Assembly (NCBI GenBank): GCA_007130885.1
Contig: SLRQ01000005.1
Location: forward strand, 5,542 to 69,541
DNA: 64,000 nucleotides
Direction of reading: 5' to 3'
From: Deltaproteobacteria bacterium
Lineage (GTDB): Bacteria > Myxococcota > Myxococcia > SLRQ01
Part shown: piece by piece, positions 4,029 through 58,668 of the stretch
Layout: each line of letters opens with the position of its first letter
Position numbering within the stretch: the first letter of the stretch is position 1
Made by a program: the position numbers and the translations under genes
Notes under the pieces: generated by a model
What the model saw: the letters and a program-made list of their open reading frames with translations, nothing else
What the model was told of the DNA's origin: nothing
The model's database searches: none

Positions 4029-6197
4029 GTGTCAATGTCAAGACGAGTTCTCATCATCGATGACGATTTAGCCACGGTGTCCGCGGCGCGGCGTTCGTTG
4101 AAGGCCGTAGGGTATCAGCCGATGGTGGCCGCGAGCCGTGCGGACGCGGAAGCCGCGCTCGAGGACGGCATCGTTGATCTCGTAGTGATGTCACTTGGCG
4201 TCGAAGATGGAAGCGGTCTCGATAGATTCGAGGAGCTAAGGCGGCGCCCCGACATGCTGGTGCTACCAGTCTTGTTGATAGGCGATGGTACCGGGAATGT
4301 GTGCGATGAGGATTCCGCGGTCGAGTACGGTGCTGATGGTTACGCGGGCAGTCCGGTTGATTGGAAGGCTCTCGCAGAGGGTTTAGGCTCGTATTTCGGT
4401 GAGGGCGATCAAGATACTGCCCAGGAAGAGCATGACCTGGGGTTTTCGCTCGGCGGCCATGACGATCTCCAGAGCGGTGTTGCGGCACAGGCTGGGGCGG
4501 CCGGTAAGTCCGGCGACTGGGGAGCTAAGGTCTTGGAGGCCGACTGGCGCACCGTCAAGTGCAGCACGCCCAAGGAGAATCGGCTTGGCGGCGGATGGGG
4601 GAGCCAGGGCCTCGATGGAGAGATCGAGCTGGCTGCGCAAGAGCAAGAAGGTTTCTCTCCAAGAGCTGGGCGCCTCCCTGACGTAGTCGATGAGGAGGTG
4701 GGCCGCACAGTGGTGAGCGTGGGCGGAGCTGGTAGGGAGGCGACGGAGCGGGATCCGATCGAGGACACCGCGCTCGAGGATCCATCGATGGAGGACACCG
4801 TGCTCGAGGATCCATCGATGGAGGACACCGTGCTCGAGGATCCATCGATGGAAAACGAACTCGACACTTCGGTGGAGGACGAGACCGACTTCGGTGACCT
4901 CATGCTGGGCGAAGATGAAGATGTACCCTCTAAAACCATGACCGGCGAGGAACAGGCATCTCCCGTGGGGGCCGCGGAGCCGCAAGGCGCTTCGGAGAGC
5001 ATGGCGGAGGACGAGACGGACTTTGGTGATCTCTTCTCGGACGAGGAATACGTCGAGGCTGGTGATTCTCCAGAGGAGCGCGTGGCATCTCCGAAACCCG
5101 GTGAGGTCGGCGTTCCCAGCCGGGTCGGCCAAGCTCCGTCGATGCCCGCCATGCCCCCCGAAGGCGATCTCTCGAATATGGATGTCCCGCATCTTCTCGC
5201 CAAGGCCTGGCGGTGCAGGGCGACCGGAGCACTTCAACTGGAGAGCCCGGCCGGAAGGAGGCAGGTGCACTTCGAGAACGGGCGCCCCGTGGCTTTCATG
5301 ACCGAGGTAGGTGAAGAGCAGCTATACGAGGTGGCTTTGCGCCTGGGGATAGTGACACCCGAGCAGGCCGAGAAGGTGGCCGGCGGGTCTCGCTCCGCCA
5401 GAGAGCAGGCAGGCAAGCTGGTTGAGCTTGGAGCAATGAAGCCGGGCGAGGTCTTCGATACGGTGCGTGCCGCGGCGCATGCCGCTCTGTTTGGGGCTTT
5501 TTCGGACCAGGCGGGAAGCTGGGTGTGGTCCGAGGGCGAGAAATGCCCGGCCGAGCTACGGGTAGAACTTCCCGAACACCCGTATGCGCTGATAGCCGAA
5601 GGCGTTCGAAGGAAGCTGTCTCTCGACGCAGTGTCGTCTCGTCTAGGCGGGCCCTCCGCGATACTCGAGACCTCGGAGGACATGGAACTCGAGTTGCTCG
5701 AGCTTGGCTCCAGGGAACGAAGATTGGCGAAGAAGATCGACGGAAACACCAAGGCCGGGGATCTTGTCTTCGAATCGGGGCTGGGAGAGGAGGGGACTTA
5801 CCAGACCTTGTATAGTTTGGTTGCCTCGGGGCAGGCGGTGGTCAGGGAGCACGATTCCGCTACCCAAGGACGGCGGCCAGCTAACGATGAGCGCCTGGCG
5901 GACGTGGCCATTGATCGAAACAGGGCACTGGAGAAGTTCAAGCAGGTGCTTGGAGGTAACCATTTCGAGATTCTCGGTGTTCACCCGCGGGCGACGTCCT
6001 ACGAGGTTCATGTGGCCTATGACCGACTGTCTCGGCTCTTCGGTTGGGACACTTACGGTAGTGACGAGTTCAAGGATCTTTGGGACAAAGTAGAGGAGAT
6101 TCGCGCCGCCTTGGATGACGCGCGCGACGTGATTGGCTCCGACAGCTCTCGGGCGGACTACCTAGAGGAGCTACGGGCAAGAAAGACGGGCCTCTGA
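4029..6197 (+). CDS. response-regulator receiver - DUF4388/PATAN - C-terminal J-like domain protein with acidic repeat linker
   Basis: N-terminus RVLIIDDDLATVSAARRSLKAVGYQPMVAASRADAEAALEDGIVDLVVMSL is a CheY-like receiver. The middle MDVPHLLAKAWRCRATGALQLESPAGRRQVHFENGRPV matches DUF4388. The C-terminus HFEILGVHPRATSYEVHVAYDRLSRLFGWD resembles a J-domain helix II/III, but no HPD tripeptide is visible. A long D/E-rich repeat region lies in between. Confidence 0.75.
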   Translation: MSMSRRVLIIDDDLATVSAARRSLKAVGYQPMVAASRADAEAALEDGIVDLVVMSLGVEDGSGLDRFEELRRRPDMLVLPVLLIGDGTGNVCDEDSAVEYGADGYAGSPVDWKALAEGLGSYFGEGDQDTAQEEHDLGFSLGGHDDLQSGVAAQAGAAGKSGDWGAKVLEADWRTVKCSTPKENRLGGGWGSQGLDGEIELAAQEQEGFSPRAGRLPDVVDEEVGRTVVSVGGAGREATERDPIEDTALEDPSMEDTVLEDPSMEDTVLEDPSMENELDTSVEDETDFGDLMLGEDEDVPSKTMTGEEQASPVGAAEPQGASESMAEDETDFGDLFSDEEYVEAGDSPEERVASPKPGEVGVPSRVGQAPSMPAMPPEGDLSNMDVPHLLAKAWRCRATGALQLESPAGRRQVHFENGRPVAFMTEVGEEQLYEVALRLGIVTPEQAEKVAGGSRSAREQAGKLVELGAMKPGEVFDTVRAAAHAALFGAFSDQAGSWVWSEGEKCPAELRVELPEHPYALIAEGVRRKLSLDAVSSRLGGPSAILETSEDMELELLELGSRERRLAKKIDGNTKAGDLVFESGLGEEGTYQTLYSLVASGQAVVREHDSATQGRRPANDERLADVAIDRNRALEKFKQVLGGNHFEILGVHPRATSYEVHVAYDRLSRLFGWDTYGSDEFKDLWDKVEEIRAALDDARDVIGSDSSRADYLEELRARKTGL
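4761..4850 (+). repeat. 3 x 30-bp perfect/near-perfect tandem repeat inside CDS (encodes EDT[A/V]LEDPSM x3)
   Basis: gaggacaccg[c/t]gctcgaggatccatcgatg is repeated head-to-tail three times. It is in frame with the 4029..6197 CDS. Confidence 0.9.
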
Positions 6198-25536: not shown

Positions 25537-27749
25537 TCAGCCTTGCAGATTGACAACGAAAAAAGCGGTTCTTCCGGGCAGTGGGTATCCGTAAAGATCT
25601 TCCAGACGGCGATCGTTCAAGAGATTCGCAACGTGAAGCCCGACGGATAGGTTTCGCCGGATTCCTACTTCGGCGCCTGCTCCGAACAGGGTTCGGCCGG
25701 GTATGGAACGTGTGTTTGCCCTGTTTCTTGGGGCGGAGGACTGGACCTCGAGATCACTGTTGATATCGAGCCTCCCGATGCTCGCGGTCACTCCGGCGAA
25801 GCCTCGATGTCTCGGCCGGTACGGAAGCGTTTGCCCGTGGACGTTGGGCTTCGGCGATAGGTTGACGGCATCGGTCAGGGTATAGGCGCACGATGCCGAC
25901 AGCCAATCGGTGGGTCGCCATTTCGCCTCCGCCTCGAGACCTCTAGTCAACGCTTCTCCCACGTTGAACGGCCGCAGACGCAGAGGAGGGAAGAGTTCAT
26001 AGGTTATTAGGTCTCGATATCGGCTGTGCCATCCCATCACTCGCAAATGAACCTGGTCTTGCGCAAGCTCGACTCCTCCGTCGAACGTGACGGCCGACTC
26101 CGGCTGGAGCTCATCGTTGTTGGCGATGAGCGCCGTTGATCCATGAAGCTCGAAAAGGGTGGGCATGCGCACGCCTCTGCCCACGTTGGCTGACAGCACA
26201 ATGGATGCGGGAAGGGTGATATTCGCGCCGAATCGTGGAGAGAGTGTCGCAGGGTGGCCGCCGAAGGCGTCGAGCCTGATGCCGCCGTGCAGTGTCAAAA
26301 GGTCGTTTGCGAGAAAAGCCGTGTCGGAGACGAGCAGTGAGGCCGCCGGCCGAGTGGTTGCCGCCCCAGTGCCCGATAGCATTTCCATGCTGGCTTCACC
26401 GGAGATCTGGAGAGCCGTGCCGGCCACCAGGGCTTCCGCGGAGCTTCGCAAACCGATTACTCGGCGAGAGTTGGTAAAGGGGCTGCCCAGGCCGGGCGCG
26501 GGGTTCTCGCCCGGCTCATACTCATAGCCGTCGCCGGACATCCACGTAGCGGCGCTCCAACGGACGGACCTGTTGCCCACGGGATCGGAAGTGAAAATGC
26601 CGCCAAGAAGCGACCGTGTCGTGTCGCTGGTCGCCCCCGGTGATGGAAAGCCGACCATGCCGGCAACATCTCTTCGGTTCTTGTGTCCGAAGGCCGTAAT
26701 CTGAAGATGGCCGCCGCTCGCCGGTACCGAAGTCGACAGGATGCCGGAGCCCGAGAGCAGATTGTTGTTATCGCGTTCTTGGGTGGACCAGCTTGCGTCC
26801 GGTATGTTCGGGGTCAACAATCTTTCATACTCGAAGGTACCGCGAGAGGCATAAAGATCGATGCCGGCCGCCGCTCGGACGTTGCCGTCGGTTCCCCTCC
26901 AACCGGCAGCGGTACCGACGCTCTCGAGGCTGTCGCCCCGCGCGGTCAAGGAGCGTTTCGGCTCGAGATCATGGGATGCGCCGGGCGTCAAGGGATTCAG
27001 ATGCAACACTCCGCCCAGAGCTCCCGCTCCGTGTATTGCCGCCTCGGTGCCTCTTGTCACCACCATGCTCTCCAGAAGACTGGGTGGTACGGCGGACAGA
27101 TCGACCGCGCCTCCCCCCGGCGGAGTGATCGGGAGACCGGCCAAGGTTACGACCACCTGATCCGCCGCGGAGCCTCGAATGGAAGCAGTGATCGGTGATC
27201 CGGGCGCTCCACTTCGCCTGAGCGTTACACCGGGGGAACGAGAAATGGCCCTGCCGATGTCTATGGTGGCCCTGTCGGCCCCGCCGATCTCGATCTTGGT
27301 TGCGGCCGATGTTGGCGAGGCTTTATCGGCGGTGTCTCGGTGCACGCCGGCCGCGGTAACGTCTATCGTGGGAGCTTCCAGGACCGTCGTGCCCGAGCGC
27401 TCCCCGCGTTCATCGTCACCGGAAGTCTCATCATCGCTTTCCGTAACGTCGTTGTCATTCTCGCTTGCAGGATCGACAGGCTCGATGCTCGCTGCTTCGG
27501 AAGACTTCTCTTCATGCGCCGCGTCGTCCGCCTTCAGCGGCGAAGCAGTGCCGAGAAGTAATGACGCTGCCGCCAGGAGGGCAAGACGAGCGGAAAGCGA
27601 GGCTGGAAGATCTTCTAGCCGGCCTGCAGACGCTGGAATAGGTAAAGGCCCCGGTCCGGCTTCCTCATGGCTCCATTCCGGCCTACGCCGGAATGACAAT
27701 AGGGGCGCTGTTGCCGCCTTGCCTCGTGTCCCGCTGAACCGGATTTCCA
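25537..27749 (-). CDS. btuB: TonB-dependent outer-membrane receptor, cobalamin-type
   Basis: Plug domain (…GAPGSPITASIRGSAADQVVVTLAGLPI…) and a C-terminal beta-barrel. Immediately downstream, in transcript sense, of a cobalamin riboswitch. The start is ambiguous: the signal-like h-region LALLAAASLLLGTASPLKA lies ~50 aa after the first RBS-supported ATG at 27749. Confidence 0.8.
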
Positions 27750-27814
27750 TTTTTGGCTGCCTCTTTCGACCGAAGAGTCGAGCCACGACGCCCGTGAGGA
27801 TGTCGTCGCACATG

Positions 27815-28005
27815 GCTTGCAGGCAGGTTTCCTGGCTTCCGGGTTCGGATGCTGGTTTGCATCTTGCGCAATCTTCCGCCTTCCCCGCTTACGAGGCGAG
27901 TGGCGCATGGACGATCGCTCCCCGGCTACAGTGGCGGGACCGCGCCGGCTTTTGACCGGTCTTCCCTTTCAACCCCGAGTCCTTTTCGTATCAATCGGGA
28001 CTTGG
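27815..28005 (-). promoter_or_regulatory. cobalamin (AdoCbl) riboswitch in the 5' leader of btuB
   Basis: Minus strand contains AAAGGGAAGACCGGTCAAAAGCCGG (GGGAA/GGTGaAA core), CCCGCCACTG (B12 box) and a 3' CAGCATCC...GCCAGGAAACCTGCC element, in the canonical order. It sits directly upstream of the TonB-dependent receptor. Confidence 0.8.
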
Positions 28006-28135
28006 AGCACCTGCAGCCTCTATTCGAATTGCGGGCACCGTAAATGAAGGTATCTTCGGATGTCAACACCTTCAGTGAATCCCAAATCGTCGGGTGTCTG
28101 TCTCGAGTGGCGTAGGCGGTATGCGGTGAGCGGCG

Positions 28136-32006: not shown

Positions 32007-32975
32007 TTGTCTTTAGAGGGTTCATCAGTGGAAGCCAAGGACAAAAGAACGGAAGAGAAAGAGCACGAGGGCTTCGCTCTCAAGTTTCTTAGCGGAAAAC
32101 ATCAGGGTACCGAGTTTCCGCTTCAAAACGGCAGCGAGATCATCATAGGACGCGCAAGTGACATACCGGGCAGCATGGTCCTCGATGAGGAGAAGGTCTC
32201 TCGCAAGCACGCAAGGCTCCTCTGCGCGGGCAGCAATCTGGTGCTTCAGGATCTTGGAAGCACCAACGGTACGTTTGTCAACGGGGAGAGGATCAACGCC
32301 GCGCGACTCGAGGAGGGGGACCGGATTCTTATAGGAAGCAGCATACTCAAGCTCATCGTAAGAACCGGCGACGAAGACACCCACGAAGCCCACGCCCAAT
32401 CGCGGATGGCAAGAAAGGCGGAACGGAACCAAGGGTTCAGCATGTCCGGCCGGCTCGAGGACGTCCCGATGCCCGACGTACTCCAACTCATCGGGAGCAG
32501 CAGACAAAGCGGGGTGTTGAAGATAAGTGCCGGGAGAAGCGGCCGAGTCTATATTCGCGAGGGTCAGATTTTTCACGCGGAAATCGACGGAGAAGAGCAT
32601 TTGGGCCCGCGGAAAGCGCTCAGCAGGCTGGTGGGCTGGGAGGAAGGCGCGTTCGAGTTGGGACCGCCTGCGGGTGATGAGATTGAAACAACGCTCTGCG
32701 AGCAGACCGAAGCGCTCATTATGGACGCGCTCCGTCAGCTTGACGAGCTTCGGCTGATACAGTCCGATCTGCCTTCCAGCGATGCGACTGTAACGCTGCA
32801 ACAGGAACTCGAGAGTCCTTTGCGCGACCTGTCACCGGAAAAGCTCGACCTTCTTCAACTGGCTCACAACTGTAAAACGGTGCAGGAAGTCCTCGACGCC
32901 TCCAGCCTTTCCGATGTGGACGCCGCGGGGCACCTCTTGTTCCTAATAAACAAGGGCTACGTTTACTCGAGGTAG
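32007..32975 (+). CDS. FHA domain - DUF4388/PATAN domain protein
   Basis: N-terminal FHA (IIIGRASDIPGSMVLDEEKVSRKHARLLCAGSNLVLQDLGSTNGTFVNGERI). C-terminal DUF4388 (MPDVLQLIGSSRQSGVLKISAGRSGRVYIREGQIFHAEIDGEEHLGPRKAL). Confidence 0.7.
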   Translation: MSLEGSSVEAKDKRTEEKEHEGFALKFLSGKHQGTEFPLQNGSEIIIGRASDIPGSMVLDEEKVSRKHARLLCAGSNLVLQDLGSTNGTFVNGERINAARLEEGDRILIGSSILKLIVRTGDEDTHEAHAQSRMARKAERNQGFSMSGRLEDVPMPDVLQLIGSSRQSGVLKISAGRSGRVYIREGQIFHAEIDGEEHLGPRKALSRLVGWEEGAFELGPPAGDEIETTLCEQTEALIMDALRQLDELRLIQSDLPSSDATVTLQQELESPLRDLSPEKLDLLQLAHNCKTVQEVLDASSLSDVDAAGHLLFLINKGYVYSR

Positions 32976-52969: not shown

Positions 52970-53977
52970 TCAGGCACTTTTGGTCCGGGTCTCGTCCTCG
53001 CGCTCGGCCAGCTCCAGGTCGTGAGCTACCATGCGCTGTACGAGATCCTGGAAGCCCACTTTCGGAGTCCATCCGAGCTGCTCATGCGCCTTGGAGGCGT
53101 CGGCGCACAAGAGCTCGACGTCGGCGGGGCGCGTGAGCGCCGAGTCGCTACGAACGTAATCGCGCCAATCCAGGCCGGCCGCTGAAAAAGCCGCCTGGCA
53201 AAAATCGCTGACCGATCTCGTCTCGCCGGTGCCTATGACGTAATCCTCGGGCTCGTCGGCCTCCAACATGAGCCACATCGCTCGAACGTAATCCTCGGCG
53301 TGACCCCAGTCGCGCATGGCGTCGAGGTTGCCGAGAAACAACTCCTTTTGGAGGCCCAGCTTGATCCGGCCCACCGCGCGCGTGATCTTCCGCGTGACGA
53401 ACGCCTCCCCACGGCGTTCACTTTCATGGTTGAACAAGATGCCGTTGACGGCGAACATCCCGTAGGCCTGTGCGTACGTCCGAGTAATGTAGCAGGCGTA
53501 GGCCTTTGCCGCCGCGTAAGGACTCCGCGGGCGAAACGGTGTTTGCTCGTTTTGGGGAGACTCCGTAACCTCGCCGAAAAGCTCGCTGGTGCTGGCTTGA
53601 TAGAAGCGGCAGTCGATTCCCGCCTTTCTTATGGCTTCCAGCATGCGGAGGGTTCCAAGACCCGTGATCTCCCCAGTGTGGTCGGGATTTCGAAAAGACT
53701 CACCCACGTGGCTTTGCGCCGCCAAGTTGTACACCTGGTTTGGCCGAATCTCGGTAACGAGCCTCTCGAGGCAGGGGCCGTCCGCTATGTCGCCGTAATG
53801 CAGATGTAGGCGATCGCCGCCCTTGGAGGCGGCATGGGCGAGGTTTGGAGACTGAAGAGCTCGTATTAGGGTCGACTGCCGGACCACCCCATGTACTTCG
53901 TACCCTTTGTCGAGCAATAGCTCGGCGAGATAGGAACCATCCTGCCCCGTAATCCCAGTTATCATGGCGCGCTTCAT
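52970..53977 (-). CDS. gmd: GDP-mannose 4,6-dehydratase
   Basis: MKRAMITGITGQDGSYLAELLLDKGYEVHG... Rossmann fold plus a Y..K catalytic region. ATG at 53977 preceded by GAGAGG. The long in-frame upstream extension to 55483 in the ORF track is not part of this gene. Confidence 0.85.
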   Translation of the reverse strand: MKRAMITGITGQDGSYLAELLLDKGYEVHGVVRQSTLIRALQSPNLAHAASKGGDRLHLHYGDIADGPCLERLVTEIRPNQVYNLAAQSHVGESFRNPDHTGEITGLGTLRMLEAIRKAGIDCRFYQASTSELFGEVTESPQNEQTPFRPRSPYAAAKAYACYITRTYAQAYGMFAVNGILFNHESERRGEAFVTRKITRAVGRIKLGLQKELFLGNLDAMRDWGHAEDYVRAMWLMLEADEPEDYVIGTGETRSVSDFCQAAFSAAGLDWRDYVRSDSALTRPADVELLCADASKAHEQLGWTPKVGFQDLVQRMVAHDLELAEREDETRTKSA

Positions 53978-54079
53978 AGCTGAACCTCTCGACGCCTCGC
54001 CCGGGAGAAGCGATGCGAGCAGTGCCGTGGTAGTCAATGTTGCGATTCCACAGCTGACGTTACGAAGGCGAACTCGAGT

Positions 54080-55621
54080 GTGGAAGGCGGGCAAAATGCC
54101 CCGGAAAAGAAGGCTACGGGCTTTTTCCTGTTGACCATCCAAGTTCCATGGGCCAGATCTCCACCCATGAGCAGACAAGGCAAGGAGTTTGGTACCGATA
54201 GAGCGGGCAGGGATGGCGGCCGTAGAGCCGATGATCGCGGGAGAGGATCTCCGGGATCGGGTAGGCGAGATGGGCCGGGAGAAGGTGGACGTGGACGGGA
54301 CGCTCGAGGCCGTGGCGGTCGCGGGGACGGCAGGCGCCGTGGAGCCGGACGGGACGAGCGACGGGGCCGCGGAGGAAGACCCGGAGACAAGAGCGCATGG
54401 GAGCGGGAACGCAGGGTGGAGACGATCAAGGAGCTTATTCCCTCGGTGGATCGACCCATGGTCAAGGGAGACTTCGCCGGCCAGATGGGCCCTCTCGACA
54501 AGCTTCGAGAAGCCGTCTGCGCGGTTCGTCCGAAATCGATGGACGATTTCGGGACAGACCTGAAGGGCAGATTGCTGACGCTGTTGCTTCGGGTCGGCCG
54601 GCAGAGCAAGAAACAGGAGGACGAGGAAAAGGAGGCGGCCCGTATCAAGGTGCTCGAGGGATTGGCTCGCGTCTGGCTGGCGCTCGGTGACAATAGGCGC
54701 GCGGCGGGAGCGCTGCAAACCGCGGGTAAGGACGAGGCCGCCGCGGCTCTTCTCGATGAGAGTGGAGAGTGGAGGGCCAAGGTTGCGCTGCACCGTGCTA
54801 CCGGCGAGCCCGGCAAGGCGGCAAGGATTCTCGAGGAAAAGGGGGAGCTGGCCGATGCCGTGGAAGCCTATGCGGAAGCCGGCGACGGGGAAGGACGCTT
54901 GAGGGTGCTCGTGAAGCTTGGTGATGAGGCGAAAGTAATCGAGGCCCTCGACGCGATGCCCAAGGAGAAAGCCGAGGATGCGGCGATAAGGCATGGCGTG
55001 CTGGATGCTTGGGCCAAGGTCCTTACCGAGAGACAGGACTGGGATGGAGTCGCAAGGTTGTACCAGAAGCACGGGCGACAGGACATCGCGGCAAGAGCAT
55101 GGGAAGAAGCCGGTGATTTTCGCAAGGCAATGAAGGCGTACCGGGTCGCTGGTGACGCCGAGGGCCATGACCGTTGCCTGGATGCAATAGTGGAACAGCA
55201 CACGCGGAAGAACGATCTGTTGGGCGCCGCCAAGATTCTGGCCGGTGCGGGTTTGCTCGATCGAGCGGCGGAGGTAGCCGCGGAAAAGCATCCCGAGGAA
55301 GCCCACGAGTGGTTCATCGAGGGCGGCTACAAGGACAAGGCTCTCGATCTTGCGAGGCGAGAAGCCCGTAAAGCCGAGGGGCATCAGGACTACCGCCTTC
55401 GAGCCGTCTGGCTGGAACGGGCCAAGGACTTCGTGTCGGCAGCCACGCTTTGGGAAGGTTTGGACGACCTGGAGAAAGCCCAAAAGCTATATGAAGAAGC
55501 TCGTGCCTGGGAGCCTGCGGCGCGATGCGCGGAAAGTCGAAAGAGGTTCGACGAGGCCGTCGAACTCTACTACAGAGCCAATCTTCCGGAGAAGGCCGAG
55601 CGCGCAAAGCTTCTTGGATAG
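54080..55621 (+). CDS. hypothetical protein: N-terminal Arg/Gly-rich (RGG-like) disordered region + C-terminal alpha-helical repeat (TPR/HEAT-like) array
   Basis: Residues ~40-110 are almost exclusively R/G/D (GRDGGRRADDRGRGSPGSGRRDGPGEGGRGRDARGRGGRGDGRRRGAGRDERRGRGG). These are followed by ~34-aa periodic helical repeats carrying recurring EAGD/VAGD and KA.KAY elements. GTG start with GAAGG upstream; alternative ATG at 54167. Opposite-strand ORF judged non-coding. Confidence 0.5.
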   Translation: MEGGQNAPEKKATGFFLLTIQVPWARSPPMSRQGKEFGTDRAGRDGGRRADDRGRGSPGSGRRDGPGEGGRGRDARGRGGRGDGRRRGAGRDERRGRGGRPGDKSAWERERRVETIKELIPSVDRPMVKGDFAGQMGPLDKLREAVCAVRPKSMDDFGTDLKGRLLTLLLRVGRQSKKQEDEEKEAARIKVLEGLARVWLALGDNRRAAGALQTAGKDEAAAALLDESGEWRAKVALHRATGEPGKAARILEEKGELADAVEAYAEAGDGEGRLRVLVKLGDEAKVIEALDAMPKEKAEDAAIRHGVLDAWAKVLTERQDWDGVARLYQKHGRQDIAARAWEEAGDFRKAMKAYRVAGDAEGHDRCLDAIVEQHTRKNDLLGAAKILAGAGLLDRAAEVAAEKHPEEAHEWFIEGGYKDKALDLARREARKAEGHQDYRLRAVWLERAKDFVSAATLWEGLDDLEKAQKLYEEARAWEPAARCAESRKRFDEAVELYYRANLPEKAERAKLLG

Positions 55622-55671
55622 ACGGAAGTTAGGCGCCAAATCGGCCTAAGTGCTGGCTGCCCGGCCGGTCT

Positions 55672-58668
55672 TTGGTAGACTCTTGCGCTCGGCGCCGTAG
55701 GGTGCCACTTCAGGCGAGTCCTCGAATGACGATCGGAGCGGCTACAGCAAGAGACTTCAAGCAGCCTCCACTGGGTAGAGGCGGTGATGCCCGAGGGCTG
55801 ACGGCTCTGCTGGAGGGGGAAAGCGTAGTTGCCTTGGTAGCGGGTCGGGGTTTCGGTAAAACGAAATTGCTGCAGTGGGCGGCCGCTTCAAACGGCGTCA
55901 ACCTCCATAGCGGCAGCGCTCCCGGGACTTGCTCCCAAGGCGAGCTGGTGGTGATCGATGATGCGGATGATCTGCCAGTAAGGTCGCGTCAAGCTCTGGT
56001 TCGACGCGTTCGCAAGGCTCGGGGTCGTCTTTTGATGGCTTTTCGCGGCCTCGAGAAGGTCCCCTCCGGTTGGACAGTGAGAAAGCTCGGGTGTATCGAA
56101 CGCGTGGATGCCGTTTCGTTGCTCGAGTCGGAGCTCCGAAGCCTCAAAAAGAACATACCTGTCGAGGACATTTGCGATCGTTTGGGAGGCCACCCAGGCC
56201 TGCTTGCCACCGCCATTGAAATCGGCCGAGGGAAAAAGCAGGCGAAGACTTTCTTCTGTGACCTAGGAAGCCGTCTTCGCGCTCAATGGGTCGAACCTCT
56301 TTCGCCGGCCATGCGCCGGGCCTCCGCCATGCTTGCCGCCGCGGGAGGCTGGCTTCCGCTCACCTTGGATGTGAAAGGCTTTCAGAGGGCCGCATCCGAT
56401 TTGGTGAGAGACGGCCTTGCGGACCTCGATGATGGAGCGGTGGTGGTCTCTCCGCTTCTTCTTGCCGCAAAGAACGATCAGCTTGGTCGCGCTGTCTTGA
56501 TTTCAATGGTGGAGGCGCTGCGAGGTCAGAAGCCCATCGAACCTTCCGGCGTCAGACTTGCCGAGGCGAACCTGTTGCAACGGCTCGGTGAAGACGACTT
56601 GGCACTGAGTTCTCTGCGAGGTGCTTACCGATTTATGCGAGGCACACCTCGAAAGGGATGGTTTGAACGCAGTATAATGTGGCTTCAGTCCGAGGAGCCC
56701 AGCGCGCTTGGAGATGCGGCTCGGTTGGCATGGGAGGTTAGGCGAACCGGGTTGTATGGACAGCCGGAGGCCTCCGCCGAGAAGGTACGAAAGCTCTTGG
56801 AGAGGGGCTCGCTGGAGAGCGAGGAAGTCCTCGAGGCCCGTGCCTTTCTGGCATTCCTCAAGATGCGGAAGGGCGAGGGAGAGGAGGCCTTTCAGGATCT
56901 GGAAGGAGTAGTCGAGGATGCTGTCCGCTTGGGTGATCCACACGGCGAGGCGCAGGCGCTCCTATGGCAGGCGCTCCTCTGTTGCATCGGCGATGAACAG
57001 AGGCTGGCGGGCGCCAAGGCCAGCCGTGCGATGAGAGTGGCTCGCCGCACCGGAGTTCCCGCTTTGCATGCGCGAGCCCTCTTTTTTATGGGACGCTGTG
57101 ACCTTCTGGAGGGTGACTGGGAGGCCGCGTCCCGGCGCCTGGAGCAGTCACTTCGTCTTTGTAGGCGCCATAGGCTGGAGGACGATCAAGTGGTTGTGCT
57201 CGATGCGCTTGCAGGTCTTGCCAGCCACATCGGGCGCCCCAGCGAGGCAGCCGAGCACTTGGCCTTGGCGGATGTATTGGCGGGGCGAAGCGGGGTGCCT
57301 TCCAGAAGGGCCGAGCTTGCGGTCACGCGGGCCGAGGTAGCCTTGAAGCGCGGACACGTGACTGAATCCCGCGAGATTTTGGAAGCCGCCGACCGCATTC
57401 TACTCTCCCAGGTCGGAGACGTTTGGAGAAGGGATCTCGTAGCTGCCGAGGCAGCATTGGCCGCCGATGACATTGCCGGCGCCAAGCGAGAGCTGGCCGA
57501 GATGACTCCGCCTCCGGCTATCTCGAAGTCCTGGAGGCGTCGAAAGGCGTTCGTGGCGGCGTGCTTGCTCGAGGAGGGCGTGAAACCGGAGGTGGATCTC
57601 GAGGAGTGTCTCGAAGACCCCTTGGCCGAGCTTTGTCTGCGGCGGGCCGGCGGTGACAGGGAAGGGGCCCTTCGTGCCATCCTCGAGGTCGAAAAGGGGC
57701 TTTCGGATGACGACCTCGAGGGGTGGGTCTTTTTGAGATCGGAGTCCAGCCGTCTTCGGTTCATGGATGGACGTATCGAGGAGGGGACCTCGGATCTACG
57801 GGACCTTCGGCAAAGGCTGGTGCGTGGCAGCCCACCGACCTCCGTAGTCTTGTTCATAGAAGCCATAGAGCATCTGGCACGCGGTGAGTTACTTGCCGCC
57901 GCGAGATGTTCCGCCGCTTCGCTGCGGTTCGCCAGGCGTCTTGGTTACAAGCGAATGGCCGCCTACGCGCTCGAGTGTTTGCTGCTATCCCATTTGATAG
58001 AAGGTCGCTCCCGAGGAGTGCGCTCCCTGCTGGCAAGAGGGCAGCGTATGGTGGCTGAATGCGGCTCGCCGGCCAGAGCCGCGAGGTTCGCGACTTACAA
58101 GGTCGTCTCCGCAATTCGCTTCGGGGAGTCCCCAGAGCCAAAGGACGTCCTGGCGGCGCGGCGGTCGAAGGATCCTCTCGTCGTGGAGCTTGCCGACCTC
58201 GTTTTGGGCAAGCCGCGAGAGCGTGGCCGAAGCGGCGAGGCTGGACCGGGTAGATCTCTTGCCGTTTGGTTCAGGTCCATGGCTCTGACCGGGGCATCCG
58301 AGACGGCATCTCTCGGCGGGATGGAAGGTCCCGCGACCGAGCTGCGTATCGATGGTGAGCGACGGGAGGTCGTGCTGGCCGGTGGGAAGAGGATTTCCTT
58401 CGCCCGGCGCCGGGTTCTATGGAGGCTGCTTTGGAAGCTCTTGGAGGCGAAGGGTAGAGCAACGGATCCCTCTTCCTTGTATTGTTACGCCTGGGAACTA
58501 CCCTTCAACGCCAGTCGGCTGAACTCTCTTTATGTGGGAGTGCGGCGCTTGAGGCTGTTGGTCGAGCCGGATCCCAGCTCTCCCAGGATCATATTGGCCG
58601 CGGAGGGAGGGGGTTACGCCATGGATATAAGAAGAGTGGAGGTTGTGGGACACTCTCCACTGGGTTAG
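55672..58668 (+). CDS. STAND-class P-loop NTPase - TPR-like repeats - C-terminal OmpR/PhoB-type winged-helix (Trans_reg_C) putative regulator
   Basis: Walker A VALVAGRGFGKTKLL, Walker B ELVVIDDADD, and a GxP-like LGGHPGLLATA motif. ~600 aa of helical repeats follow. The C-terminal RRRVLWRLLWKLLEAKGRATDPSSLYCYAWELPFNASRLNSLYVGVRRLRLLVEPDPSSPRIILAAEGGGYAMD fits the Trans_reg_C wHTH pattern (…RLR..L……I.TV.G.GY). Confidence 0.65.
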   Translation: MVDSCARRRRVPLQASPRMTIGAATARDFKQPPLGRGGDARGLTALLEGESVVALVAGRGFGKTKLLQWAAASNGVNLHSGSAPGTCSQGELVVIDDADDLPVRSRQALVRRVRKARGRLLMAFRGLEKVPSGWTVRKLGCIERVDAVSLLESELRSLKKNIPVEDICDRLGGHPGLLATAIEIGRGKKQAKTFFCDLGSRLRAQWVEPLSPAMRRASAMLAAAGGWLPLTLDVKGFQRAASDLVRDGLADLDDGAVVVSPLLLAAKNDQLGRAVLISMVEALRGQKPIEPSGVRLAEANLLQRLGEDDLALSSLRGAYRFMRGTPRKGWFERSIMWLQSEEPSALGDAARLAWEVRRTGLYGQPEASAEKVRKLLERGSLESEEVLEARAFLAFLKMRKGEGEEAFQDLEGVVEDAVRLGDPHGEAQALLWQALLCCIGDEQRLAGAKASRAMRVARRTGVPALHARALFFMGRCDLLEGDWEAASRRLEQSLRLCRRHRLEDDQVVVLDALAGLASHIGRPSEAAEHLALADVLAGRSGVPSRRAELAVTRAEVALKRGHVTESREILEAADRILLSQVGDVWRRDLVAAEAALAADDIAGAKRELAEMTPPPAISKSWRRRKAFVAACLLEEGVKPEVDLEECLEDPLAELCLRRAGGDREGALRAILEVEKGLSDDDLEGWVFLRSESSRLRFMDGRIEEGTSDLRDLRQRLVRGSPPTSVVLFIEAIEHLARGELLAAARCSAASLRFARRLGYKRMAAYALECLLLSHLIEGRSRGVRSLLARGQRMVAECGSPARAARFATYKVVSAIRFGESPEPKDVLAARRSKDPLVVELADLVLGKPRERGRSGEAGPGRSLAVWFRSMALTGASETASLGGMEGPATELRIDGERREVVLAGGKRISFARRRVLWRLLWKLLEAKGRATDPSSLYCYAWELPFNASRLNSLYVGVRRLRLLVEPDPSSPRIILAAEGGGYAMDIRRVEVVGHSPLG

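What the first reader, a model, noticed from the sequence alone, without database searches (positions are those of the whole stretch)
54080..55621. RGG/RG-rich disordered N-terminus fused to an alpha-helical repeat array, directly upstream of the STAND regulator
About 70 residues are composed almost only of Arg, Gly and Asp (GRDGGRRADDRGRGSPGSGRRDG…RRGRGGRPG). RGG/RG boxes of this kind are classic eukaryotic RNA-binding or phase-separation motifs and are rare in bacteria (RNase E tails, some helicases). They are followed by ~12 helical repeats with periodic EAGD / KAMKAYRVAGD signatures. The gene is divergently placed from gmd and co-oriented with the STAND NTPase gene 50 bp downstream, suggesting a two-gene module. 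The opposite strand carries an even longer ORF, so coding-strand assignment needs care.
Basis: partly seen in the sequence, partly recalled or inferred. Interest (0 to 1): 0.6.

Follow-up and report, generated by a model that had tools for sequence, protein, structure and literature searches.

The report
Arg/Gly-tailed helical-repeat scaffold protein
This is a real plus-strand gene for a protein with a floppy, positively charged Arg/Gly-rich head and a long helical-repeat body; it belongs to an unstudied family of myxobacteria-type bacteria, some of whose members sit in the gliding-motility gene cluster at a spot once dismissed as "not a gene".

Summary
The plus-strand ORF is the real gene. 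Against a 76%-identical homolog, substitutions fall 82/50/236 by codon position (pN 0.17, pS 0.79). The long minus-strand ORF is GDP-mannose dehydratase plus a non-conserved antisense extension.

The Arg/Gly/Asp-rich segment (residues 13-75 from ATG 54167; R+G 68%, net +11) is almost certainly translated. All nine homologous loci examined keep an in-frame, RG-rich extension upstream of the conserved core. Of 108 family members with an N-terminal extension, 97 are RG-rich. Public annotations of this gene (387 and 401 aa) cut the tail off. The likeliest start is ATG 54167, not GTG 54080.

The body is a confident AlphaFold all-alpha solenoid of 13-residue helix-turn units. It resembles IFT-A and clathrin-type repeats but stays below Pfam thresholds.

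The proposed two-gene module with the downstream STAND-like regulator is not conserved. Only one other lineage has that regulator nearby, 3.7 kb away.

The family extends to cultured myxobacteria. Longer members, misnamed "DEAD/DEAH box helicase" or "Rho", lie between gltH and gltI in the gliding cluster. That is the agmV / MXAN_4864-65 slot, discarded in 2011 as a likely false positive.

Function is inferred: a cytoplasmic scaffold with a polyanion-binding tail.

The parts
54167..55621 (+). Complete gene as reinterpreted: 484 aa plus TAG stop. The protein has an RG-rich tail, a helical neck and an alpha-solenoid.
   Evidence: Homologs at 54-76% identity. Substitutions against L004 fall 82/50/236 by codon position, with pN 0.17 and pS 0.79. 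In homologs the start is an ATG just before the RG run.
54080..54166 (+). 29 in-frame codons upstream (from GTG 54080) that are probably not translated. They form part of the 189-bp divergent intergenic region shared with gmd.
   Evidence: No counterpart in any homolog. Homolog frames close 3-11 codons upstream of their ATG. Coding score is neutral and GC3 is 0.55.
54203..54391 (+). Arg/Gly/Asp-rich intrinsically disordered segment (residues 13-75), net charge +11, with tri-RG and di-RG motifs.
   Evidence: composition, uniqueness within the window. (pLDDT below 50 for residues 1-73). (in-frame RG tail in 9 of 9 loci; 97 of 108 members RG-rich; 104 of 105 tails net positive).
54389..54682 (+). 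Helical 'neck' (residues 75-172) containing the most conserved family motifs, DRPMVKGDF..Q and LLTLLLRVGRQ. The publicly annotated starts GTG 54416 and ATG 54458 fall inside its first predicted helix.
   Evidence: invariant columns; helix 75-99; P0001 and P0164 starts; the Met is Leu in P0006 and P0008.
54692..55615 (+). Alpha-solenoid (residues 176-483): about 21 short 13-residue helix-turn units plus two longer helices, forming 26-residue hairpins. Net negative charge.
   Evidence: Sub-threshold Pfam hits to TPR_IFT122, TPR_IF140-IFT172 and Clathrin. PDB profile hit to IFT144 at E=4e-8. Foldseek gives only generic TPR-like solenoids with TM at or below 0.3.
52970..53977 (-). GDP-mannose 4,6-dehydratase gene, divergent neighbour. 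The 837-aa minus-strand ORF (52970..55483) is this gene plus a spurious antisense extension across the finding.
   Evidence: The Pfam GDP_Man_Dehyd match covers residues 507-818 only. The minus frame shows pN 0.34 above pS 0.25 and has 4 stops in L004.
55672..58668 (+). Downstream STAND-like regulator: [AG]xxxxGKT P-loop, TPR region and C-terminal OmpR-type winged helix. It is a neighbour, not a conserved partner.
   Evidence: Pfam TPR_12, TPR_MalT and Trans_reg_C. 42% identical over its full length to L005:7807-10704, which lies 3.7 kb from the homolog there. Absent from all other loci.

Best explanation
Shown: window 54167-55621 (+) encodes a 484-aa soluble protein of a conserved, uncharacterised family. 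Its named members are all Myxococcota or 'deltaproteobacterial' MAGs. The architecture has three parts. First, a cationic Arg/Gly(/Asp) disordered tail of about 75 aa. Second, a helical neck of about 100 aa with the motif LLTxLLRVxRQ. Third, an acidic alpha-solenoid of about 310 aa built from 13-residue helix-turn units that resemble the short-helix repeats of IFT-A and clathrin-type solenoids. The tail is conserved in kind (composition, charge, reading frame) but not in sequence, which is how functional disordered regions behave.

Inferred: the protein is a cytoplasmic scaffold or adaptor. The solenoid would bind one or more protein partners. The tail would supply multivalent, low-specificity electrostatic binding to a polyanion such as RNA or DNA, an acidic protein segment, or an anionic membrane, and so favour clustering of whatever the solenoid holds.

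The best functional lead comes from longer family members. They lie between gltH and gltI in the Agl-Glt gliding-motility G1 cluster of Myxococcaceae-type genomes, which points to the cytoplasmic platform of that machine. The window's short form lies in a housekeeping context with no conserved neighbour, so its own partner is unknown. It does not form a conserved module with the adjacent STAND-like regulator.
For: Real gene on the + strand.

Tail translated: the upstream frame is open and RG-rich from an ATG in all loci. Of 108 members with an N-extension of at least 25 aa, 97 have R+G of 35% or more. 104 of 105 tails are net positive, with R outnumbering K about 6 to 1. The annotated Met is Leu in P0006 and P0008, and conserved residues and a predicted helix span the annotated start. 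In L001 and L002 the tail is a 21-bp tandem repeat, which preserves the frame and encodes GGGRGPG. In the window the tail uses mixed synonymous codons with no DNA repeat.

Fold: mean pLDDT 81.6, core about 90; period 13 and 26. Similarity to IFT-A and clathrin repeats.

Family size: 983 cluster representatives at E<1e-3 and 35 at E<1e-30.

Gliding-cluster context of long forms: the order gltD-E-F-G-H-[X]-gltI is seen in L009 (M. stipitatus), L013 and L014, with homologous flanks. It matches Table 1 of PMC3169522. A transposon in that slot (agmV) gave an A-motility phenotype.
Against: There is no expression or proteomic evidence for this organism. No Shine-Dalgarno-like sequence or promoter match precedes ATG 54167. 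The tail's codon score is neutral and its GC3 (0.56) is below the window's gene average (0.71), so codon statistics alone do not support its translation.

The short form has no conserved gene neighbour, and no glt homolog occurs in the window or in any short-form locus. Transferring a motility role from the long forms is therefore weak. The agmV phenotype may be a polar effect on gltI, as PMC3169522 Text S1 argued. No binding or condensation property of the tail has been tested. Fold matches are generic, with TM at or below 0.3.
Confidence: 0.55

Rival explanations
1. An RNA-binding or RNA-chaperone protein that nucleates ribonucleoprotein condensates. On this view the RG tail binds RNA as eukaryotic RGG/GAR domains and the tails of bacterial RhlE, DeaD and RNase E do, and the solenoid recruits client proteins.
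For: The tail has tri-RG and di-RG motifs, net charge +11 and is disordered. Some relatives carry GAR-like RGGFGG runs, for example P0017 and P0298. Annotation pipelines name homologs 'DEAD/DEAH box helicase' or 'Rho', although Pfam finds no helicase or Rho domain in the window protein. I infer these names come from tail similarity.
Against: There is no RNA-binding fold, no RNA-metabolism neighbour in any locus, and no di- or tri-RGG box. Long forms sit in a motility cluster, not an RNA cluster. Asp is interspersed through the tail, which lowers its charge density.
Confidence: 0.2
2. One reading: a two-gene module in which the RG-solenoid protein works with, or is controlled by, the STAND-like ATPase/TPR/wHTH regulator 50 bp downstream.
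For: The two genes are co-oriented with a 50-104 bp gap and no terminator-like site between them. The ortholog of the regulator lies 3.7 kb downstream of the homolog in L005/L006.
Against: In L005 four genes, one on the opposite strand, separate the two. The regulator is absent within 8-10 kb in L001, L002, L003/L004/L007, L010, L011, L009, L013 and L014. This includes the closest relative at 76% identity, whose downstream genes are on the other strand.
Confidence: 0.06
3. The public annotation is right: translation starts at GTG 54416 or ATG 54458, and the RG-coding stretch is an untranslated leader.
For: Gene callers chose these starts (P0001 at 387 aa, P0164 at 401 aa). Codon statistics for the tail are neutral.
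Against: All nine loci keep frame 0 open and RG-rich, while other frames carry stops sporadically. The Met is replaced by Leu in P0006 and P0008. Conserved residues and AlphaFold helix 75-99 span the annotated starts. Sister annotations of the same genes differ by about 64 aa according to whether the tail is included.
Confidence: 0.05
4. A bacterial relative of eukaryotic protocoatomer solenoids (IFT-A, clathrin, VPS), acting as a membrane-associated coat or tether with the cationic tail binding anionic lipids.
For: Sequence-profile hits go specifically to IFT144/WDR19, IFT140 and IFT122 (E down to 4e-8), sharing the 13-residue W..A...Y...G pattern. Pfam gives sub-threshold hits to TPR_IFT122, TPR_IF140-IFT172, Clathrin and TPR_WDR35. 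One homolog is named 'CLH domain-containing'.
Against: All Pfam scores are below the gathering thresholds. There is no beta-propeller. Foldseek TM is at or below 0.3, and generic TPR proteins score equally well. Repeat proteins with biased composition easily give convergent profile hits.
Confidence: 0.07
5. The minus-strand 837-aa ORF (52970..55483) is the real gene across this interval.
For: It is longer, and its codon-composition score is nearly as good (0.233 against 0.296 per codon in the core).
Against: Only its C-terminal 330 aa match GMD. In the overlapping region pN 0.34 exceeds pS 0.25, and the frame has 4 stops in L004. Homologous loci have different upstream genes. The same antisense artefact appears in L002 (740 aa) and L009 (839 aa).
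Confidence: 0.01

Closest known systems
agmV / MXAN_4864-MXAN_4865 slot of the Myxococcus xanthus G1 gliding cluster (Youderian 2003 screen; Luciano et al. 2011, PMC3169522)
   Same: The protein family is the same by sequence: the A1 profile hits long forms at 1e-35 to 1e-48, and M. stipitatus against the window gives E=8e-17. The architecture is also the same: RG tail, neck motif and 13-residue solenoid. [quoted passage not shown]
   Different: The window protein is a short form (484 aa). It lacks the Ala/Pro/Glu-rich and Arg/Glu/Pro-repeat inserts, belongs to a separate clade and is not next to any glt gene. Equating the family with MXAN_4864 rests on synteny in M. stipitatus, L013 and L014. 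The M. xanthus sequence itself was not examined.
TPR-like/CHCR alpha-solenoids of IFT-A (IFT144/WDR19, IFT140, IFT122) and clathrin heavy chain
   Same: Short helices of about 10 residues, a W/A/Y/G repeat signature and a superhelical all-alpha fold. The profile E-value to IFT144 is 4e-8.
   Different: No N-terminal WD40 propellers. Pfam scores are below threshold. The 26-residue hairpin is shorter than the 34-residue TPR. Global structural superposition is poor, with TM at or below 0.3. Homology is not established.
Eukaryotic RGG/RG (GAR) domains and RG-rich tails of bacterial RNA helicases, RNase E and Rho inserts (my own knowledge of these families)
   Same: A disordered, Arg/Gly-dominated, net-positive segment with tri-RG motifs. 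Some relatives have RGGFGG runs.
   Different: The tail is attached to a solenoid rather than to an RRM, helicase or nuclease domain. Asp is interspersed at about 13%. There is no di- or tri-RGG box in the window protein. RNA binding is untested.
GltI (AgmK), the giant cytoplasmic TPR scaffold of the Agl-Glt machine (PMC11761067)
   Same: A cytoplasmic all-alpha repeat protein. In long-form genomes it is encoded immediately downstream of the family member.
   Different: GltI has 3,500-4,100 aa of canonical TPRs and no RG tail. It shows no detectable sequence relation to the window protein in these searches.

Membership tests
RG-tail / 13-residue-solenoid family (unnamed; includes MYSTI_05347 and the agmV-slot proteins) | Conserved neck motifs (D[RK]P[ML]V.GDF..Q and LLT.LLRV.RQ) followed by a solenoid ending in YYRA...AER.K | tested here: met
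   Invariant columns in A1. Full-length profile matches to P0017-P0028.
RG-tail / 13-residue-solenoid family (unnamed; includes MYSTI_05347 and the agmV-slot proteins) | N-terminal Arg/Gly-rich, net-positive disordered tail, in frame with the core | tested here: met
   Window tail has R+G 68% and net charge +11. 97 of 108 and 104 of 105 members share the property.
Agl-Glt G1 gliding cluster component (agmV slot) | Encoded between gltH and gltI, downstream of gltD-E-F-G | tested here: not met
   No glt homologs occur in the window or in short-form loci. The feature is met only by the long forms in L009, L013 and L014.
Agl-Glt G1 gliding cluster component (agmV slot) | Required for adventurous gliding and localises to focal adhesion complexes | not testable with these tools
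   The only data are the agmV transposon phenotype, which may be a polar effect.
Canonical TPR (Pfam TPR_1/TPR_2) | 34-residue helix-turn-helix repeat scoring above the Pfam gathering threshold | tested here: not met
   Period is 13 and 26 residues. TPR_2 scores 11.4 bits against 27, and TPR_1 9.9 against 27.8.
Clathrin heavy-chain repeat (PF00637) / IFT-A TPR regions (PF25295, PF24762, PF25170) | Score at or above the Pfam gathering threshold | tested here: not met
   20.2 against 29.6, 25.9 against 75, 22.6 against 26.8, and 12.7 against 27.
Clathrin heavy-chain repeat (PF00637) / IFT-A TPR regions (PF25295, PF24762, PF25170) | Specific sequence or structure similarity beyond a generic solenoid | tested here: inconclusive
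   Profile hit to IFT144 at E=4e-8 with a shared 13-residue pattern. Foldseek TM is at or below 0.3, and LGN, OGT and APC score equally well.
Protocoatomer architecture (beta-propeller + alpha-solenoid) | N-terminal WD40 beta-propeller | tested here: not met
   The model has no strands, and the N-terminus is disordered.
RGG/RG motif proteins (tri-/di-RGG and tri-/di-RG definitions, recalled from Thandapani et al. 2013) | Clustered RGG or RG repeats spaced 0-4 residues apart in a disordered region | tested here: met
   Tri-RG and di-RG motifs are present. Di- and tri-RGG are absent. Disorder is shown.
RGG/RG motif proteins (tri-/di-RGG and tri-/di-RG definitions, recalled from Thandapani et al. 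2013) | Binds RNA or drives phase separation | not testable with these tools
   This needs biochemistry.
DEAD/DEAH-box helicase or Rho (names carried by homologs in NCBI/UniRef) | RecA-like helicase core (Pfam DEAD + Helicase_C) or Rho RNA-binding and ATPase domains | tested here: not met
   No such Pfam or NCBIfam hit even at E up to 1. The model is all-alpha. The names are misnomers, which I infer come from the low-complexity tail.
Two-gene module with STAND-like regulator | Conserved adjacency or co-occurrence of the two genes | tested here: not met
   The ortholog appears only in L005/L006, 3.7 kb away, and in no other locus.

The most novel reading that the evidence does not exclude
This family is the true product of the agmV locus. 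It would be a conserved cytoplasmic component of the myxobacterial focal-adhesion gliding machine that was dropped in 2011 as a false-positive ORF and is missing from the current 17-protein model. Its RG tail would drive the higher-order clustering of Agl-Glt units around GltI that structural modelling has failed to explain. The short forms, such as the window's, would be the ancestral version of a scaffold with an IFT/clathrin-like solenoid that predates the motility machine.
Probability: 0.25. Interest if true: 0.8.

Novelty: new variant of a known kind. Interest (0 to 1): 0.55.

Why it matters
First, the gene is systematically mis-annotated. Its starts are truncated, so the RG tail is lost. 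Relatives are named helicase or Rho, and in M. xanthus the slot was discarded as a non-gene. The most distinctive feature of the family is therefore invisible in databases.

Second, conserved RG-rich disordered tails on a non-RNA-enzyme scaffold are unusual in bacteria. More than 100 natural tail variants of the same kind offer a tractable system for studying how such tails work in prokaryotes.

Third, long-form members sit inside the Agl-Glt cluster. That nominates a concrete, testable candidate for the poorly understood cytoplasmic platform of bacterial focal adhesions. A 2025 structural-model paper (PMC11761067) states that this platform could not be predicted.

Fourth, the solenoid's specific similarity to IFT-A repeats may interest those tracing bacterial relatives of eukaryotic coat-type solenoids, although homology is unproven.

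Tried and rejected
- **Codon and GC3 statistics** could not separate the two strands: 0.296 against 0.233 per codon. This is the same problem reported for MXAN_4864/65. Comparative substitution analysis resolved it.
- **Family libraries:** Pfam and NCBIfam have no family for the protein.
- **Collection scans:** the metagenome-contig scan found nothing. The genome-contig scan returned only two loci already known.
- **Regulatory and RNA scans:** the promoter and terminator scan of 53800-55900 found nothing. Rfam found nothing in the region, and there are no tRNAs.
- **Literature:** searches for Myxococcus with clathrin repeat, and Myxococcota with RGG, returned nothing. A search for 'agmV' returned only two relevant papers.
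- **Cluster look-ups** did not return an M. xanthus DK1622 accession, so the link to MXAN_4864 rests on synteny only.
- **AT-hook reading of the tail:** considered and rejected, because there is no recurring [RK]GRP core.
- **Tat or Sec signal:** considered and rejected, because there is no hydrophobic h-region.
- **Conserved operon partner:** a radical-SAM/BATS gene lies downstream in L001, L002 and L005 but is absent from the window, L003 and L011.
Full report
**1. What is in the sequence**

The + strand ORF 54080..55621 (513 aa) exists as described. It is flanked by a divergent GDP-mannose 4,6-dehydratase gene and by a co-oriented 998-aa ORF starting 50 bp downstream. That downstream ORF has an [AG]xxxxGKT P-loop, a MalT-like TPR region and a C-terminal OmpR-type winged helix.

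GMD proper is 52970..53977. The remaining 1.5 kb is an open antisense frame.

Counting from ATG 54167, residues 13-75 are 68% Arg+Gly and 81% Arg+Gly+Asp, with net charge +11. No other 63-residue stretch in any of the six frames of the window exceeds 54% R+G, so this is not a by-product of high G+C. Tandem Repeats Finder sees no DNA repeat under it. Arg and Gly are spelled with many different codons. By the usual motif definitions, recalled from memory, the tail has tri-RG and di-RG motifs but no di- or tri-RGG box.

**2. Which strand codes**

Codon-composition scores barely separate the sense frame from the phase-matched antisense frame: 0.296 against 0.233 per codon in the core. Comparison with a 76%-identical homolog (L004; ungapped 1,161-nt core) is decisive.
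- Differences fall 82/50/236 on codon positions 1/2/3 of the + frame, with pN 0.17 and pS 0.79.
- In the long minus frame pN (0.34) exceeds pS (0.25), and that frame has four stops in L004.
- Homologous loci also have different upstream genes (aldolase II rather than GMD), yet L002 and M. stipitatus show equally long antisense ORFs.

The antisense ORF is therefore a recurrent artefact of this gene's composition.

**3. Is the RG tail translated, and where does the protein start**

Public records annotate this gene as 387 aa (P0001, ATG 54458) or 401 aa (P0164, GTG 54416). Both exclude the tail. The evidence is against those starts.
- In every homologous locus fetched, the frame upstream of the conserved 'DRPMVKGDF' is open and RG-rich back to an ATG or GTG. 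This holds for L001, L002, L004, L005, L009, L011, L013 and L014, while the other two frames carry stops sporadically.
- The annotated Met is Leu in P0006 and P0008. Residues upstream of it ('ETIKELIPSVDRP') align with homologs.
- AlphaFold places a single helix at residues 75-99, which both annotated starts would cut.
- Of 108 family members with at least 25 residues before the core, 97 have R+G of 35% or more. 104 of 105 tails are net positive, with a median R:K ratio of about 6:1.
- In L001 and L002 the tail is a 21-bp tandem repeat encoding (GGGRGPG)n, a period that preserves the reading frame.
- Sister annotations of single Myxococcus genes differ by about 64 aa according to whether the tail was included.

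Homolog frames close 3-11 codons upstream of their initiator ATG, and their proteins begin with M, a few polar residues and then the RG run. By analogy the window's start is ATG 54167 (MSRQGKEFGTDRAGRDGG...) rather than GTG 54080. The 29 extra codons have no counterpart elsewhere and score neutrally.

Two caveats apply. No Shine-Dalgarno or sigma-70-like match precedes 54167. The tail's own codon statistics are uninformative.

**4. Anatomy of the protein**

AlphaFold2 with a 13-sequence alignment gives mean pLDDT 81.6. Residues 1-73 fall below 50. Residues 75-483 form 28 helices with no strands, at about 90.

Residues 75-172 form a neck of four longer helices. It carries the most invariant motifs, including LLTLLLRVGRQ.

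From residue 176 the chain is a very regular solenoid.
- Helix start-to-start spacing is 13 residues in 21 of 23 steps.
- The unit is approximately 'xxxAAxx[LYW]xxxGD'.
- Sequence autocorrelation peaks at 13 and 26 residues.

The core is mildly acidic (net -7) and the tail strongly basic.

**5. Comparison with known folds and families**

No Pfam or NCBIfam model reaches threshold. The best are TPR_IFT122 (25.9 bits against 75), TPR_IF140-IFT172 (22.6 against 26.8) and Clathrin (20.2 against 29.6). Canonical TPR models score about 10 bits.

A profile of the family against all PDB sequences hits only IFT-A subunits with significance: IFT144 at 4e-8, WDR19, and more weakly IFT140. The alignment shows the same 13-residue W..A...Y...G rhythm. 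Foldseek finds only generic solenoids (IFT-A, clathrin, LGN, OGT, APC) at TM of 0.3 or less.

I conclude that the protein folds like the short-helix CHCR/IFT-type solenoids. Membership of those families is not established, and the propeller that defines the protocoatomer architecture is absent.

**6. The family and its genomic contexts**

An exhaustive profile search finds 983 cluster representatives at E<1e-3 and 35 at E<1e-30. Many weaker hits are multi-domain proteins, such as kinases, that share the repeat.

A distance tree separates several short-form clades (400-520 aa) from a long-form clade (530-700 aa). The short forms include the window's clade and a Vulgatibacter clade. The long forms carry Ala/Pro/Glu-rich and Arg/Glu/Pro-repeat inserts.

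Named long forms come from Myxococcus, Corallococcus, Stigmatella, Melittangium and Archangium. They are labelled 'DEAD/DEAH box helicase', 'Transcription termination factor Rho', 'CLH domain-containing' or 'TPR'. Pfam finds no helicase or Rho domain in the window protein, so the first two names are misnomers. I infer they were triggered by the tail.

Short-form neighbourhoods share no constant partner.
- Aldolase-II and FemAB genes lie upstream, and a radical-SAM/BATS gene downstream, in L001, L002 and L005.
- L003 has unrelated genes on the opposite strand.
- L011 has ApbA.
- L010 has nothing recognisable.
- The window has GMD and the STAND-like regulator.

The rest of the window is ordinary chromosome: PriA, AcrB, AlaRS, sigma-70, AdoHcy hydrolase and ClpA.

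**7. The STAND module idea**

The window regulator is 42% identical over its full length to L005:7807-10704. There it lies 3.7 kb downstream, separated by radical-SAM, HhH-GPD, haem-oxygenase-like and an opposite-strand glycosyltransferase gene. tblastn finds it in no other locus, including the closest relative's. The adjacency in the window is therefore a lineage-specific juxtaposition, not a conserved two-gene module.

**8. The unexpected link to gliding motility**

In M. stipitatus (L009) and two metagenomic genomes (L013, L014) the long-form gene sits in a conserved gene order:
1. a ~1,200-aa TPR protein;
2. a ~420-485-aa TPR protein;
3. an ~85-115-aa protein;
4. a ~640-aa FHA/TonB_C protein;
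5. a ~210-220-aa protein;
6. the family member;
7. a 3,500-4,100-aa TPR protein.

All flanks are mutually homologous. This is the gltD-E-F-G-H ... gltI order of the M. xanthus G1 cluster, and the sizes and domains match Table 1 of Luciano et al. 2011.

That paper places 'agmV (MXAN_4864/65)' in this slot. It records that a transposon hit there was found in the A-motility screens. It then discards both ORFs as 'likely false positives', for three reasons: they overlap on opposite strands with equal third-position GC skew, they seemed unique to M. xanthus and Stigmatella, and the transposon could be polar on agmK/gltI.

The present data show that the sense ORF belongs to a family conserved across many genomes. 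The strand ambiguity is the same artefact seen in the window. A 2025 AlphaFold-based model of the machine lists at least 17 proteins, does not mention this gene in the passages read, and reports that the cytoplasmic platform could not be predicted.

Equating the family with MXAN_4864 is an inference from synteny, because the M. xanthus sequence itself was not available to me. An OMV proteomics paper lists 'MXAN_4865 AgmV' among detected proteins. I could not determine which ORF those peptides support.

**9. Mechanism**

Shown: the gene is real, the tail is conserved in kind, the fold is a solenoid, and long forms lie in the glt cluster.

Inferred: the protein is a cytoplasmic scaffold whose solenoid binds protein partner(s). 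Its cationic, Asp-punctuated RG tail would provide multivalent electrostatic contacts to a polyanion and so promote clustering. Candidate polyanions are nucleic acid, an acidic protein segment such as the acidic inserts of the long forms, or an anionic membrane.

For long forms the natural partners are the cytoplasmic parts of Agl-Glt: GltI, GltG-FHA, GltJ, AglZ and MglA. For the window's short form no partner can be named. From memory, Vulgatibacter is described as non-gliding. If that is correct, the ancestral role of the family is independent of motility. An RNA-centred role is the main rival and cannot be excluded.

**10. Verdict**

The gene is a new, mis-annotated variant of a known kind: a TPR-like solenoid scaffold with a disordered tail. 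Interest is moderate to good. This rests mainly on the family-wide RG tail and on the candidate link to a gene slot that the gliding-motility field set aside.

Noticed in passing
L009:7809-9644; L013:10001-11803; L014:10001-11812: Long-form family members lie between gltH-like and gltI-like genes of the Agl-Glt G1 gliding cluster. This is the agmV / MXAN_4864-65 slot, discarded as a likely false positive in 2011 and not mentioned in the passages read of a 2025 structural-model paper.
   Followed up: partly
window 27805-28029 (-): A cobalamin riboswitch (Rfam RF00174, 100.5 bits) lies directly upstream of a TonB-dependent receptor (25537-27813). The same strand then carries a periplasmic binding protein and a FecCD permease gene. 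This looks like a B12 uptake operon.
   Followed up: no
window 55672-58668 (+) and L005:7807-10704: The STAND-like regulator has an unusual domain order: P-loop ATPase, then TPR, then a C-terminal OmpR-type winged helix. The Walker A lysine is present in the window (GRGFGKT) but lost in the L005 ortholog (GLGVGVS), so ATP binding may be dispensable in some lineages. The true start may be ATG 55726.
   Followed up: partly
L001:8109-8289; L002:7814-7960: In two relatives the RG tail is encoded by a 21-bp (or 42-bp) tandem DNA repeat giving (GGGRGPG)n, with 7-9 copies. The window's tail has no DNA repeat. Tail length seems to evolve by in-frame repeat expansion in some lineages.
   Followed up: partly
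window 52970-55483 (-); L002:6981-9203 (-); L009:7137-9656 (-): Very long antisense ORFs (837, 740 and 839 aa) run across this gene in three distant genomes. Each fuses with, or overlaps, the divergent or upstream neighbour. They are a recurrent annotation trap caused by the gene's codon composition.
   Followed up: yes
P0001 (387 aa), P0164 (401 aa); P0180 547 aa vs ORF 611 aa in L009; P0192/P0297 557 vs 621 aa; P0288/P0290 566 vs 630 aa: Public annotations of the same or near-identical genes disagree by 60-100 residues on the start codon, according to whether the RG tail is included.
   Followed up: yes
P0017, P0298, P0307, P0315 (Vulgatibacter clade); P0010, P0012: Some short-form relatives also carry a basic Gly/Arg/Pro/Lys-rich disordered tail at the C-terminus, for example GGGGRGPGGGGRGGRGPGGGGRGRG. 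The cationic tail can therefore sit at either or both ends of the solenoid.
   Followed up: no
P0014, P0015 (about 810 aa): Ser/Thr protein kinases from metagenomes carry C-terminal repeats related to this solenoid (E about 5e-4). The repeat module is therefore reused in signalling proteins.
   Followed up: no
window 4029-6197 (+) and 32007-32975 (+): Two DUF4388-containing proteins are present. One has a receiver domain and the other an FHA domain.
   Followed up: no
Tails of 47 of 105 family members; window residues 6-9 (KEFG): A short aromatic motif recurs near the start of many tails, in the forms [ES]FG or GF[SE]F[GD], for example GGFSFDD and GGFEFG. It may be a linear binding motif embedded in the RG region.
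   Followed up: partly
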